64,000 nt of DNA from Harriotta raleighana (taxonomy: Eukaryota). The notes below the pieces were generated by a model that was given only the letters and a program-made list of their open reading frames with translations, was not told the DNA's origin and made no database searches. Below are positions 435 to 42,299 of this stretch, in pieces. The DNA is taken from contig JBNZDD010013726.1 of assembly GCA_050575255.1 (NCBI GenBank), forward strand, positions 6,270,465 through 6,334,464. Reading direction: 5' to 3'. Numbering within the stretch: position 1 is the first letter of the stretch; each line of letters starts with the position of its first letter. The position numbers were made by a program, and so were the translations under genes.

Positions 435-1058
435 GGTCTGGGCTGAGCTGGGATTTGAGCTGAGGTCTGAGATGAGCCTGAGTTGAGGTGAGTATGGGCT
501 GGGGTTAACCGGGTCTGAGCCAGACTCTGGCCAGAGACGAATCTGGTTTGAGTCTGGCTCATTTACTAAGGTGGGAAGTGTTTGAGCCTGCCTCTGGATG
601 GAGCTAGGTTCTAGGCTGAGGTGAGTCTAGGGTGAGCTGGGCTCTGGCGAAGTGGGCTCACATGTGACCCTGGCTAAAGTCTGAAGTGAGTCAGGTTTGA
701 GCCTCGTTCGGGGCTGAGGTGAGTGGGATTGGAGTGTGTCTCAGGGCTGAGATGAATGGGGTTTGAGCCGGGCTTAGGGCTGAGATGAGCAGGGTTTCAG
801 TCTACCCCAGAGCTGGGCTGGGCTCTGGGGTGAGGTGAGCCGGGATGAGGTGAGTCGAGTTTGAGCCAGGCTTTGGGATGGGGGTGAGCGGGGTTGTGGG
901 CTGAGGTGAGCCGGGCTCTGGGATGAGGGTGGTGGGGGGGAATGTGGTGAGCTGGGTTTGAGCCTGGGATGGAGGTGAGCGCGGTTTGAGCCTGGTTCCG
1001 GGCTGTAGTGAGCCGGGCTCTGGGATGAGGTTGGGGTTTTGAGTCTGGGCTGAGCTGG
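435..1058. repeat. Degenerate G/T-rich tandem array built from GGGCT/GAGCT/GAGGTGAG/GTTTGAGCC units
   Basis: Recurrent GGGCTGAGGTGAG and GGGTTTGAGCC units. At least seven GAGGTGAG copies. Exact repeat GTGAGCCGGGCTCTGGGATGAGG at ~906 and ~1008. Strong G-over-C skew on the + strand. Confidence 0.8.
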
Positions 1059-1060
1059 AT

Positions 1061-1070
1061 GTCACGTGAC
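1061..1070. promoter_or_regulatory. Palindromic extended E-box / CLEAR motif GTCACGTGAC (USF or MiT-TFE class)
   Basis: Perfect 10-bp palindrome at the 5' edge of the CpG-rich region upstream of PTEN. Confidence 0.6.
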
Positions 1071-1340
1071 CCGCCTGGGATCCAAAAGTAGCGCCGCCCT
1101 GTCAGCAGCGCGTCAATCCGCCGCCGGATAACCACCGCAACCAGTGTTGTAATATCTCATTTTTTTAAAAGCGCACTTAAAAGAAACGCCTTCGCCGAGA
1201 CGCGAAACTTGCTTCAAAAGCAAGAGAGCGGCGGCTGTGTAGACTTCATTTGAGGGGAAGGAGGTTTGCTGAAAGGGGAGGGCGCTTTCTTGCGCCGGCG
1301 GAAGGTTACGGTGCGCTGCGCTGTCTTTTCCCGGGAAGCC

Positions 1341-1355
1341 ATGATGGAAGTTTGA
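1341..1355 (+). promoter_or_regulatory. Micro-uORF ATG ATG GAA GTT TGA (M-M-E-V-stop) in the PTEN leader
   Basis: Read directly: gaagcc ATG ATG GAA GTT TGA. First ATG has G at -3; second has A at -3 and G at +4. Confidence 0.65.
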
Positions 1356-2286
1356 GAATCGGAGCGGCGGCCGGAGCCGGGGCTGGAGTCGGGAGCCGGG
1401 CCGCAGCTGGAGCCGGAGCCGGACCCAGACCCAGAGCGAGTGAGGGAACGGGTGGGCAGGCAGGAAGGCGGGTGAGGGAGCGAGCGAACAAGCATCACCC
1501 CCCCCCCCCCTCACACACCCCCTTTCTGCTCTCAACCCCCAGAAAGAGCTCCATCTCGTCCCCTTTTTATTATTTGGCTGTAAAGAGGAAGAAGAGCCTG
1601 GATTCGGGAGCGTGGATTAATGCTGTGTTTGCTGCACGAACGAAGACTCACTCACTGACTCAGTGAAAAAAAGGGAGCCCCGGAGCCGGGTTTTTTTTTA
1701 CCCCCCCCCCCCCCGCCGAAAAATAAACTTTTTATAGATAAATATAAAAAAAAGAAACGTCTCAGTTTTATACCTGTTTGAATCACGGACGAAGATTCCC
1801 CCCCCCCCCTTTTTTTTCCCCCCTTTTTCCCCCCTTTTTCCCCCTTTCCTACCCCCTCCCTCCCTCCCTCCCACCCCCTCTCCTCTTCCCCTTCCTCCTC
1901 CTCCTCCTTCCCCGACCCGGCGGCAGCGGAGGACGAGGAATCGGAGACGGAGCCTGTGATTGTGGGACGGCCTCAGCACGCAATTTGGATCATTCTCACC
2001 TACTGTTCTCCCATGGTGATTTTATTTATACATATTATACATCTGTACACACACAAACTCACACACACACATCAAGGCCTCCGAAAAGCATCCCCCCCCA
2101 CCACCGCAGAGATTATTGACGGAGCTGACTGAGGAGGTGTGTGAGAGAGCGAGAGTTGCTCGGTGGTGTAGGCCCTGTGTGTGACAGCAGCCATAATCAG
2201 CGAACAGCCCAGAGCCCATTTCCACATCCTCCACCACCACCACCACCACCTCCTCCTCCGCTGGAGCCGGGATCGCACGCACAGAC

Positions 2287-14300: not shown

Positions 14301-16133
14301 TTGTTACAATAAAGGAATGATTTTTAATTATCAGGAAACCAGAAGTGTAGGATTTTCCTTCTAACATTTACAAAGTATTATTTCTAGTACTAGTACCAAT
14401 TGTGGCTTACTGAACATTTAACCATGTGTGGGAAAATTTTACTTCATGAATCTTTATGAAACTGATTGCGCCAATTAAGATAGTCTCAGTATGAGTGTGC
14501 CTGATATGGTTTCAAGAGTGTGGAATGCAAATACATATCTGGAACACCAAGGGAATGATTATGCCCCAAATTAAATACAATAGCTTTTTTTTGCAATGCT
14601 GTATTAGATAATATGAATTGTTTGAGCAGGTACAAGTTTGATAACTGGGAATCAATTAATGTTGGTGATGCTAATTAAGTTTTTTTAATGAGTACCAAAA
14701 CTTAGAAAGTGGATAATTATATGGCTAGCTTTTCAAAAGCAATACTTGCATGATGCTGTAAAATAGTTTTTTTTAAGTTAGAATATCAAATAACAGATTA
14801 ACATTCTTTTATTTAATGTTTTGCTTATCAATTCAAAAAGTCAACATATTTTCTCTCAATGTAGTTGCATAAACAATGAAGATTTTGTAGCAGTGTAATG
14901 TATGGCTCATTTCCTGATATATGTGGGTTTAAGAAAAGTCTTAATGTCTGTTATGTAAATGCTTGCTTTATGGTTGAGGTGGCAACTGTGGTAAATCCTA
15001 TTTATGCTTCACAGTATAGCCTTCAGATGAGGGGTTTTCTTTTTAGATTGCAGCTGTCACAGTGATTTATAACAGGAAGCAAGTCTTATCGTGTGCAACC
15101 AGAAGTATGGATTGTAGTTTTGAGTAGTGTACTTGGTCTCTAAAATTGGTCTGTGTTTTAACTGTTGCACGTTGCAATCAACAAATAATCAATGACTGTT
15201 CTGTAAAATGTACAAATTAGATAATTTAAATATTTTAGATCAATTTTTTCCAATGGTGTAAGCAAGAAATAGTCCAGCGGACATGAGCAAATATGATAAA
15301 ATAATACTGCAGAAACACAAAATGTATACTGTAAATGAGCTTGGTATACCTTTTTGTATATACTGTACTGACTAAGGCATGGTTGACTTGAGTCTGTACA
15401 GTATCCTGTAAGTAATGCATGCAACACTGTAAGCCTTTGTATAATTATATATCAAATGCAAGGATTGTTATTATTTACTGCCTTTACTGTGTTTAATGCA
15501 ATAAATATACAATATATTCTGATAATTCAGTTTATCAGAAGAAATTGTATATCTGCATGGCTGCCTCCAATTAATGCACATACCTGTATAAAACACATCT
15601 AGAATAGTGCTGGCATTAATCAATAAAACATGAAGCTCAATCCTTCAAGCTGAAATGGGTGGGGCACATTTATTTGGAGAGGTACAATACTGTGTTGACA
15701 TTTCTATGAGTATTACACAGAATTTATAATTGGGCAGCTCACGATCAAATTATCCTTGAGTTACAAAGGTCATCTTGACTAAAATAATTCTATATTTCCT
15801 TAATATTATAAAGGGTAGTCGTGTGCATCTGTACAGTAGTGTTTATATATTAAAACATTGCACACTATATAAAACAGGTGCAACAATCTCATACTTTCTA
15901 CTGTGTACGTTGTTAGGTTTCTATTTAATTATTTTTATTATCATAGAATTGTGCATTATTACAATTCAAATAGTGATTGATTTCACTTTTGACTAACAAC
16001 TTGTTTTAAATACACAGTAAAGTAAAATATTTTTAACAGTAAATACATTTGATTGGTTCTATTGATTGGGCACTGTGCAGTGGAATACATTTTGTATATT
16101 TGCATTTAAAGTATTAGTATTTCACTAATAATA

Positions 16134-16771
16134 ATCCGTCGGATCCACCTCCGCCAATACCTCACCCCAAAAGCCGCTGAAACCCTGGTCCACGCCTTTG
16201 TCACCTCTCAGCTNGACTATTGCAATGCTCCCCACTCCGGTCTCCCCACCTCCATAATCCACGGAGTCCAGTTTATCCAAAACTCTGCCGCTCGCGTTCT
16301 CAAGGGGACATGGGCACCAAACGTCACTCCCCCATTATCCCAGTCGTTGCCAGGCTTCACTGGCTCCCTATCCCAGAGAGGATTGATTTCAAGATCCTCA
16401 CCCTCATCTTCAAATCCCTCCATTCCTCTGCACCCCCCTACCTCTCTGACCTCTCTCCTCAACCCAGCACCTGTTGCCTTTGCTCCATCGGGTCTGGCCT
16501 CCTCCATGTCCCCTGAATGCTCCACTCCACCCTCGGCGGCCATGCCTTCAGCCACTATGCCCTGCGGCTCTGGAATTCCCTTCCTCACTCTCTACGTCTC
16601 GCTCCGTCTTTTTCCAATTTCAGGTCCCAGCTGAAGACCTTTCTCTTCGACCACGCCTTTGGTCACCTTTCTAGCACTACACCTGGCTCGGTCCCAGGAT
16701 CTGCTATTGTGAAGCACTCTTAAGACGCCGTCTGGCATGGAGGGCGCTATATAAATCGAAGTTGTTGTTGT
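16134..16771 (+). mobile_element. L2-clade LINE 3' end (degenerate ORF2 C-terminus plus tail)
   Basis: Translates to YLTPKAAETLVHAFVTSQLDYCNA..LHWLPIPERIDFKILTLIFKSLH..APPYLSDL..AFSHYALRLWNSLP; ends GGCGCTATATAAAT..(GTT)n. Confidence 0.92.
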
Positions 16772-34321: not shown

Positions 34322-34543
<222 letters not shown>

Positions 34544-41116: not shown

Positions 41117-41620
41117 TACAACAACAAGATTGCATTTGTAGAGCGCGTTTCACGTCGGGAGGACGTCCCAAGGCGCTAGACAGTTGGTTTAGGACCCGAG
41201 CAGGGGGAAATGATCAGGGCGAGGGGAGGGAGGGAGCGAGGAGGGGGTAGAGAGTCGAGAGGGGAGCTGAAGGCACGGTCGAAGAGAAAGGTCTTGAGAC
41301 CGACCTTGAAAGAGGAAAGGGAGGAAGCGAGGCGAAGGCACAGGGGGATGGAGTTCCAGAGCCTGGGGGCTGAGCGGATAAAAGCCCGGCCGCCGATGGT
41401 AGGACGGTTAGGGCAGGGGACGTGGAGCAGACCAGAGCCAGAGGAACGGGCAGGTAGATAGGGGCATAGTAGGTCGGAGAGGTAGGAGGGAGCAAGGCCG
41501 TGAATGGCCTTGTAGGTAAGGATGAGGATCTTGAATTCGATCCTCTGGGGGATGGGGAGCCAGTGGAGACGGGCGAGGGTGGGAGTGATGTGGTCATGAA
41601 GCCTGGTGCGGGAGAGAATA
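41117..41620 (-). mobile_element. L2 LINE 3' fragment, relatively young (CpG-rich)
   Basis: Minus strand gives HITPTLARLHWLPIPQRIEFKILILTYKAIHGLAPSYLSDL..; tail GCGCCTTGGGACGTCCTCCCGACGTGAAA..(TTG)n. Confidence 0.92.
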
Positions 41621-42299
41621 CTACTTAAGGTTAGAATGGAAAATGTACATAAAAATCCTAACTGATGACCATTAGACGTTCAATTGCTAAACTAATTTTT
41701 TATGGTTAAAGCCATTTGTAAAAGATTAATTCTGCCTGAATTAGGTTCATTGTCCACTAGATATATTAATTTATCCTACTGGATAGTGTACCAATTCTAA
41801 CATTTTATTTAATTATTTTGCTTAATTCTTCCACTTTTTATATTAGTTCTCTTAATTAATCTAGTATGAAAGAATTCCAACAATGTTCTTTTAAAAGGAA
41901 ATATGTATCAGTGTCTTCTCACTTATCTATCTTCTCTCAATCACTTACGGAGACCAATTAGGTGTTTGCCACTGCACTGTTAATGCAAGGGAGGTTACTT
42001 TCGTGTAAGTTGATAGTTTGTCAGGCCCCGAAGCCATGACAAGAATCACAACTGATCACCCAGAATTAACAGTCTCCAGGATGCATTATTGCAACAAGAT
42101 AGATTTGTGGTAAGCTATTGGTTTTTAAAAAAAAGAGATTTGAGTAGTATTTTGCAGAGGAAATGTTCTCATGGCCTTGCCTTCCTCTAGCAGGGGTATT
42201 GACTTAATGTACAATTGATTCTCTTTGCTTATACTGTCGGTGTCTTCACACAGGGCTGCTAGTTTATGCACACAAGTTAATCTTAACCTATGTAACTAA

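What the first reader, a model, noticed from the sequence alone, without database searches (positions are those of the whole stretch)
1270..1360. MMEV micro-uORF appears conserved from this fish to human, while the overlapping MP31 start codon does not
Seen: GCC ATG ATG GAA GTT TGA GA at 1338-1357. As recalled, the human PTEN leader has the same 20 nt. There the ATGA is also the stop of the 31-aa MP31 uORF (…CAG CCA TGA). Here the equivalent frame (…GGG AAG CCA TGA, stop 1342-1344) runs back only to an in-frame TGA at 1270-1272 with no ATG, although nucleotide similarity persists (GGAGGGCGCTTTCTTGCGCCGGCGGAAGGTTACG). Inference: the ancestral constrained element is the 4-codon tandem-AUG uORF (a re-initiation or dosage control, like ATF4 uORF1) and MP31 arose later on top of it. 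I am not aware that this tiny uORF has been characterised.
Basis: partly seen in the sequence, partly recalled or inferred. Interest (0 to 1): 0.7.

Follow-up and report, generated by a model that had tools for sequence, protein, structure and literature searches.

The report
Ancient PTEN micro-uORF in a chimaera
This is a cartilaginous-fish copy of a four-codon upstream reading frame already characterised in the human tumour-suppressor gene PTEN; 21 bases match the human sequence exactly, so this likely translation-control element is far older than mammals, but the element itself is not new.

Summary
The window carries an intact single-copy PTEN, closest to Callorhinchus milii PTEN. Its leader has a tandem-AUG four-codon ORF (MMEV-stop, 1341-1355). 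Bases 1337-1357 match a printed human PTEN siRNA at 21 of 21. Tzani et al. 2016 (PMC4892431) characterised this element as PTEN uORF1: heavy ribosome footprints, under 10% reporter effect of AUG loss, severe loss on stop removal, no arsenite response. That argues against a simple ATF4-like stress switch. A relative's RNA contig begins about 30 nt before the AUG (weak hint, one study). If so, the MP31-equivalent frame is mostly promoter; it has no AUG and is frameshifted in two relatives. Not found in my searches: uORF1 reaches cartilaginous fish (Tzani aligned 52 mammals), while uORF2 and the PTEN-L/M extensions are absent here, so its described human role is probably not the ancestral one. 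Identity at wobble and flanking bases is unexplained; a downstream-promoter DNA role is not excluded.

The parts
1341..1355 (+). uORF1 orthologue: tandem AUG, four codons (MMEV), TGA; G at -3 of AUG1, A at -3 and G at +4 of AUG2
   Evidence: fits the description of human uORF1 in PMC4892431
1337..1357 (+). 21-nt block identical to human PTEN mRNA
   Evidence: printed human PTEN siRNA, PMC5004029, compared by eye; chance estimate
1310..1312 (+). inferred main transcription start (weak hint), about 31 nt before AUG1
   Evidence: RNA contig of organism D (run X10, record 1) aligns from its 3rd base at 1312, while a contig of run X11 (same organism, covers the intron) has 33 more upstream letters; one study only
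1313..1394 (+). block with no listed substitution in 4 of 4 runs of three related organisms (table truncated)
1270..1344 (+). stop-to-stop frame that would correspond to MP31 (correspondence recalled); 23 codons, no AUG; largely upstream of the inferred start; +1 and +6 insertions in organisms B and C
1620..1658 (+). 12-codon uORF private to this species (AUG reads ATT in organisms B, C, D)
2013..2132 (+). 39-codon uORF, C at -3 and G at +4, ends 155 nt before the main AUG; candidate inhibitory uORF, not at the place of human uORF2
2194..2196 (+). in-frame stop 30 codons before the main AUG: no PTEN-L/M/N/O-type extension is possible here
   Evidence: human extensions are 72-173 aa
2287..34543 (+). 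PTEN coding region, nine exons, intact catalytic motif; exon 1 ends at 2365
   Evidence: single locus in the genome

Best explanation
1341-1355 is a four-codon, tandem-AUG upstream ORF in the PTEN leader with 21 bases identical to human, likely the orthologue of human PTEN uORF1 and likely translated here as it is in human cells. Inferred mechanism: about 30 nt from the cap, two AUGs in good context catch most scanning ribosomes; because the ORF is only four codons long the 40S subunit keeps scanning, reloads initiator tRNA and re-initiates downstream (39-codon uORF after 658 nt, main AUG after 932 nt). PTEN is thus made mostly by re-initiation, and the early stop codon is the part that must not be lost. 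MP31, uORF2 and the PTEN-L/M extensions would be later additions in the lineage to mammals.
For: Shown here: the ORF and its contexts; 21 of 21 identity to human; intact single PTEN; no listed change at 1313-1394 in four runs against 15 listed in each of X4 and X9 over 1161-1312; in X4 no A or G of the uORF is changed and at most one T could be. The overlapping-frame peptide SHDGSL of the window recurs in a sauropsid-type PTEN model (P0049, XP_054030595.1) and SHDG in a mammalian one (P0032). Shown in human (PMC4892431, passages): many footprints on uORF1; removing its stop (161 codons) severely cuts reporter output; re-initiation after it is efficient. The identity block spans -4 of the AUG to +2 after the stop, about the extent of a uORF with its context; proteins P0049/P0032 imply a two-codon indel just upstream.
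Against: No ribosome data for any fish. Loss of both AUGs changes the human reporter by under 10% and arsenite has little effect, so the selective benefit is not shown. Identity includes wobble and flanking bases, more than 'any short uORF' needs. The start-site hint rests on one contig of one study, and contigs cannot fix a start. Substitution tables were cut: up to 1 (X4), 3 (X9), 6 (X10) and 6 (X11) unlisted changes are of kinds that could fall in the uORF, and 23 indel rows were not shown. In P0049 the residue after SHDGSL is Ala, which does not fit a TGA stop (it would fit TAG, a splice in the model, or loss of the stop). Only 2 of 21 long-extension models showed the motif, though most do not translate that frame.
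Confidence: 0.75

Rival explanations
1. The block is kept mainly as DNA: a downstream core-promoter or transcription-factor site at about +28 to +48; the uORF is translated but tolerated rather than selected.
For: Full nucleotide identity with wobble bases; the invariant-looking block in relatives starts at the inferred start site (1313-1394); 1339-1347 is an odd palindrome (sequence); AUG loss is nearly neutral in reporters that did not test the native promoter; many hyperconserved leaders overlap promoter elements (PMC9456764, passages).
Against: YY1-type core has 2 mismatches on + and 3 on - to a recalled 9-mer consensus; block edges match start context and stop; strong human footprints; steady-state mRNA little changed when both uORFs were disabled in reporters.
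Confidence: 0.17
2. ATF4-like delayed re-initiation: under eIF2-alpha phosphorylation ribosomes leaving uORF1 skip a downstream inhibitory uORF and PTEN rises.
For: Short cap-proximal uORF followed by a long one in both species (45 codons in human, 39 codons at 2013 here).
Against: Arsenite made little difference in the human reporter; human uORF2 has no AUG counterpart here (none between 1345 and 1619); the fish's long uORF lies 658 nt downstream and does not overlap the main ORF.
Confidence: 0.08
3. The identity is a chance match or a product of mis-assembly or contamination.
For: The block is only 21 nt; the generic ORF shape occurs once more in the window.
Against: Expected chance about 5e-7; same gene and same place near the cap; contigs of three other organisms align continuously across it; the PTEN is Callorhinchus-like, not mammalian.
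Confidence: 0.01

Closest known systems
Human PTEN uORF1 (Tzani et al. 2016, PMC4892431)
   Same: Four codons, tandem AUG in good context, most 5' uORF, close to the cap, same gene; 21 identical bases by way of the siRNA in PMC5004029 (that this siRNA sits on uORF1 is my inference).
   Different: Reported only for 52 mammals. The fish leader lacks uORF2 at the corresponding place and cannot make N-terminally extended PTEN, the two things uORF1 was shown to act on.
MP31 (31-aa PTEN uORF microprotein; Huang et al. 2021, seen only through reviews PMC11837024 and PMC11106035)
   Same: By recall its stop overlaps uORF1's first AUG; the same overlapping TGA exists here.
   Different: No start codon, frame closed after 23 codons, frameshifted in two relatives, mostly upstream of the inferred start. 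A review says MP31 comes from 'a specific PTEN isoform', and Tzani's CAGE-based leader has uORF1 as the most 5' uORF.
ATF4 uORF1 / GCN4 uORF1 (recalled)
   Same: Very short, cap-proximal, re-initiation-permissive uORF ahead of a longer uORF.
   Different: No main-ORF-overlapping inhibitory uORF; no stress induction in the one published test.
Hyperconserved vertebrate 5'UTRs (Byeon et al., bioRxiv 10.1101/2020.06.29.165878)
   Same: Pten is named among the h5UTRs (passage), so deep conservation of this leader is on record.
   Different: The passages seen do not tie Pten's conservation to uORF1 or to cartilaginous fish; supplements were closed.

Membership tests
PTEN uORF1 orthologue | In the leader of an orthologous PTEN | tested here: met
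   Nine exons, PTEN structures best hit (E 1.6e-46 against 2.7e-17 for VSP), one locus in the genome
PTEN uORF1 orthologue | Four codons, tandem AUG, good context | tested here: met
PTEN uORF1 orthologue | Sequence homology to the human element | tested here: met
   21 of 21 bases to a human PTEN siRNA; chance about 5e-7
PTEN uORF1 orthologue | Most 5' uORF, near the cap | tested here: inconclusive
   One RNA contig of a relative starts about 30 nt upstream; no second study, no CAGE
PTEN uORF1 orthologue | Translated, followed by re-initiation | not testable with these tools
   Shown for human only
Mammalian PTEN leader architecture | 45-codon uORF2 shortly after uORF1 | tested here: not met
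   No AUG 1345-1619; AUG 1620 is species-private
Mammalian PTEN leader architecture | Open in-frame extension of 72-173 codons (PTEN-O to PTEN-L) | tested here: not met
   In-frame stop at 2194-2196
MP31 orthologue | AUG-initiated 31-codon ORF ending at the overlapping TGA | tested here: not met
   23 codons, no AUG; frame shifted in organisms B and C; position of MP31 itself is recalled
ATF4-type stress switch | Main-ORF output rises on eIF2-alpha phosphorylation | not testable with these tools
   Negative in the human reporter with arsenite (PMC4892431)
YY1 site | Match to the YY1 core consensus (recalled) | tested here: not met
   2 and 3 mismatches in 8 specified bases; binding not tested

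The most novel reading that the evidence does not exclude
The 21 bases are a sequence-specific translation sensor, not just a short uORF: the exact codons and stop context make re-initiation on PTEN mRNA depend on a signal not yet found (for example mTOR/S6K- or recycling-factor-dependent re-initiation), giving all jawed vertebrates a conserved PTEN dosage switch that predates uORF2, PTEN-L/M and MP31.
Probability: 0.15. Interest if true: 0.6.

Novelty: new member of a known kind. Interest (0 to 1): 0.25.

Why it matters
PTEN is dosage-sensitive (established knowledge), and its uORF1 has almost no effect in standard reporters. Finding it unchanged in a cartilaginous fish (roughly 450 million years of separation, recalled), in a leader that lacks uORF2 and the extended proteoforms, says that the reason for its conservation has not been found and marks these 21 bases as a place to look for non-coding PTEN variants. 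It also dates MP31 as younger than uORF1. This is a useful footnote to a 2016 paper, not a new system.

Tried and rejected
No RNA holder was on record for the window's own species; this says nothing on expression. A second read-laying meant to list all differences around the uORF and add a second RNA study gave no result, so strict invariance in relatives and the start site stay open. The MP31 paper was not held; a homologue search with the MP31-like part of a mammalian PTEN model found 0 of 19 candidates; a paper search for a 7-residue motif from that model found 0. Tzani's supplementary alignment starts downstream of uORF1 and does not print it. RNA structure: 1310-1400 and 1310-1460 fold less stably than shuffles (z +1.7, +1.5), so no support for a hairpin. 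Searches for a published fish or shark report of this uORF listed none; I read listings plus passages of PMC11260288, PMC10659439, PMC9456764 and two preprints; subscription papers and bioRxiv supplements were not searchable, so absence is not proven. A function for the tetrapeptide itself was considered and set aside for lack of any evidence. Earlier scan notes held nothing on PTEN.

Full report
The gene. The + strand holds a complete PTEN: start at 2287, exon 1 ending at 2365, eight further exons to the stop at 34541-34543. Exon 5 hits solved PTEN structures at E 1.6e-46, far ahead of VSP and TPTE2. A search of the 1.1-Gb own genome with that exon gave one match among 12 candidates scored. 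Of 140 stored PTEN proteins laid on the window, the named Callorhinchus milii protein matched at 399 of 440 aligned residues (90.7%; an unnamed partial protein, P0001, gave 91.0%), the other listed members of that cluster at 86-88% and bony vertebrates at about 73-82%, apart from one contaminated sturgeon model with duplicated pieces. The organism is therefore likely a chimaera-type cartilaginous fish (inference).

The observation. AUGs at 1341 and 1344 open Met-Met-Glu-Val-stop (1341-1355). The overlapping frame ends at TGA 1342-1344 and is closed upstream by TGA 1270-1272, with no AUG; no + strand AUG lies between 1060 and 1340. A paper search for the motif found one paper: a PTEN siRNA used in human LX-2 cells, whose strands match 1337-1357 at 21 of 21 bases and which lowered PTEN protein (PMC5004029, passages). 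So the human mRNA carries the same bases. Any shared 21-mer between two 1-kb leaders is expected about 5e-7 times; the generic ORF shape, however, appears once per strand in the window.

It is already described. Tzani et al. [quoted passage not shown] Changing both AUGs lowered reporter output by under 10%; changing its stop (161 codons) cut it severely; removing the 45-codon uORF2 raised it more than twofold; removing both raised PTEN-L about 5.3-fold and the main form about 1.6-fold; arsenite made little difference. The human start site by CAGE is 187 nt inside the RefSeq 5' end, and in that leader uORF1 is the most 5' uORF. The paper does not print uORF1's sequence in the text I could read; equating it with the siRNA site is my inference from the matching description. 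Pten is also named among hyperconserved vertebrate 5'UTRs (preprint passage).

Relatives. Twenty runs from 7 studies hold part of 1100-2370. I laid 4 of the 23 listed, from organisms B, C and D. Contigs of B and C run continuously across 1050-1688 or further. No substitution is listed at 1313-1394 in any of the four runs, against 15 each for B and C at 1161-1312. The tables were cut (22 substitution and 23 indel rows hidden). Counting by kind of change, at most 1, 3, 6 and 6 unlisted changes (X4, X9, X10, X11) could fall in the uORF; in B every A and G of it is unchanged. Strict invariance is thus likely but not shown. B and C have a 1-nt insertion after 1274 and a 6-nt insertion after 1312, so the MP31-equivalent frame is not kept even among close relatives, and no listed change creates an AUG there.

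Start site. Run X10 (organism D) is RNA by behaviour: one contig continues from exon 1 into exon-2 sequence and it has no cover at 2384-2400 in the intron, which X11 covers. Its leader contig aligns from its third base at 1312, while a contig of X11 has 33 further upstream letters. This puts the 5' end near 1310, 31 nt before the first AUG. It is a weak hint: one study, separate contigs, and contigs cannot fix a start. A review states MP31 comes from 'a specific PTEN isoform' (PMC11106035, passage).

Intermediate lineages. Some database PTEN models have over-long predicted N-termini that translate leader DNA. Of 153 stored proteins, 21 have extensions of 200 residues or more; two show the overlapping-frame peptide of the window: SHDGSL in P0049 (98% to a turtle PTEN, grouped with sauropsid-type rows) and SHDG in mammalian P0032. 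Both read G-S-C-S-H where the window reads G-S-H, implying an indel just upstream of the identity block. This is indirect, and in P0049 the next residue does not fit a TGA stop. Two mammalian models (P0016, P0143) contain an M-W-R-N-S-L-C stretch that by my recall resembles the MP31 start; this was not tested against MP31 (searches found nothing).

What the fish leader lacks. There is no AUG between 1345 and 1619, so no uORF2 at the mammalian place. The AUG at 1620 is ATT in B, C and D. A 39-codon uORF at 2013-2132 ends 155 nt before the main AUG. The main frame is closed at 2194-2196, so the 72-173 residue extensions cannot be made. By eye, short islands in the last 110 nt of the leader still resemble the human row printed in the supplement. 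uORF1 is therefore likely older than uORF2, the extended proteoforms and MP31, or these were lost in this lineage; one lineage cannot tell gain from loss.

Mechanism. Best reading (0.75): a cap-proximal, re-initiation-permissive uORF through which most ribosomes pass, with the early stop as the critical feature. Translation and re-initiation are shown for human and inferred here. Rival (0.17): a DNA element just downstream of the start; identity at wobble and flanking bases and the near-neutral AUG mutant favour it, a poor YY1 match (2 and 3 mismatches) and block edges that fit an ORF speak against it; the two roles can coexist. An ATF4-like switch (0.08) failed its one published test. No stable RNA fold was found.

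Verdict. Real, conserved, and already characterised in human. The extension to cartilaginous fish and the absence there of the elements uORF1 is known to act on were not found in ten paper searches, which cover open-licence papers only. Interest 0.25.

Noticed in passing
window 1061-1070: Perfect 10-bp palindromic E-box (USF/TFEB CLEAR-type by recall) about 240 nt upstream of the inferred start, inside the CpG island; no listed difference in runs X4, X9, X11 (truncated table).
   Followed up: partly
window 2013-2132: 39-codon uORF in the fish leader, not at the place of human uORF2; a possible independent inhibitory uORF. Its start is covered in organism B with A and G unchanged.
   Followed up: partly
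window 1620-1622: AUG private to this species (ATT in three relatives), creating a 12-codon uORF.
   Followed up: yes
window 440-1050: G-rich degenerate repeat region with strong GC skew upstream of the promoter; TRF finds a 22-nt unit at 862-931.
   Followed up: no
window 34536-34543: The main ORF ends with the same last eight bases as uORF1 (both end Val-TGA); probably chance.
   Followed up: no
window 16110-16631 (+) and 41179-41679 (-): Open stretches that read like LINE retroelement remnants (by recall), in PTEN intron 1 and downstream.
   Followed up: no
P0016, P0032, P0049, P0143, P0145, P0146: Database PTEN models with mis-predicted N-termini that translate promoter and leader DNA; useful as indirect witnesses of leader sequence, not real proteoforms.
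   Followed up: partly
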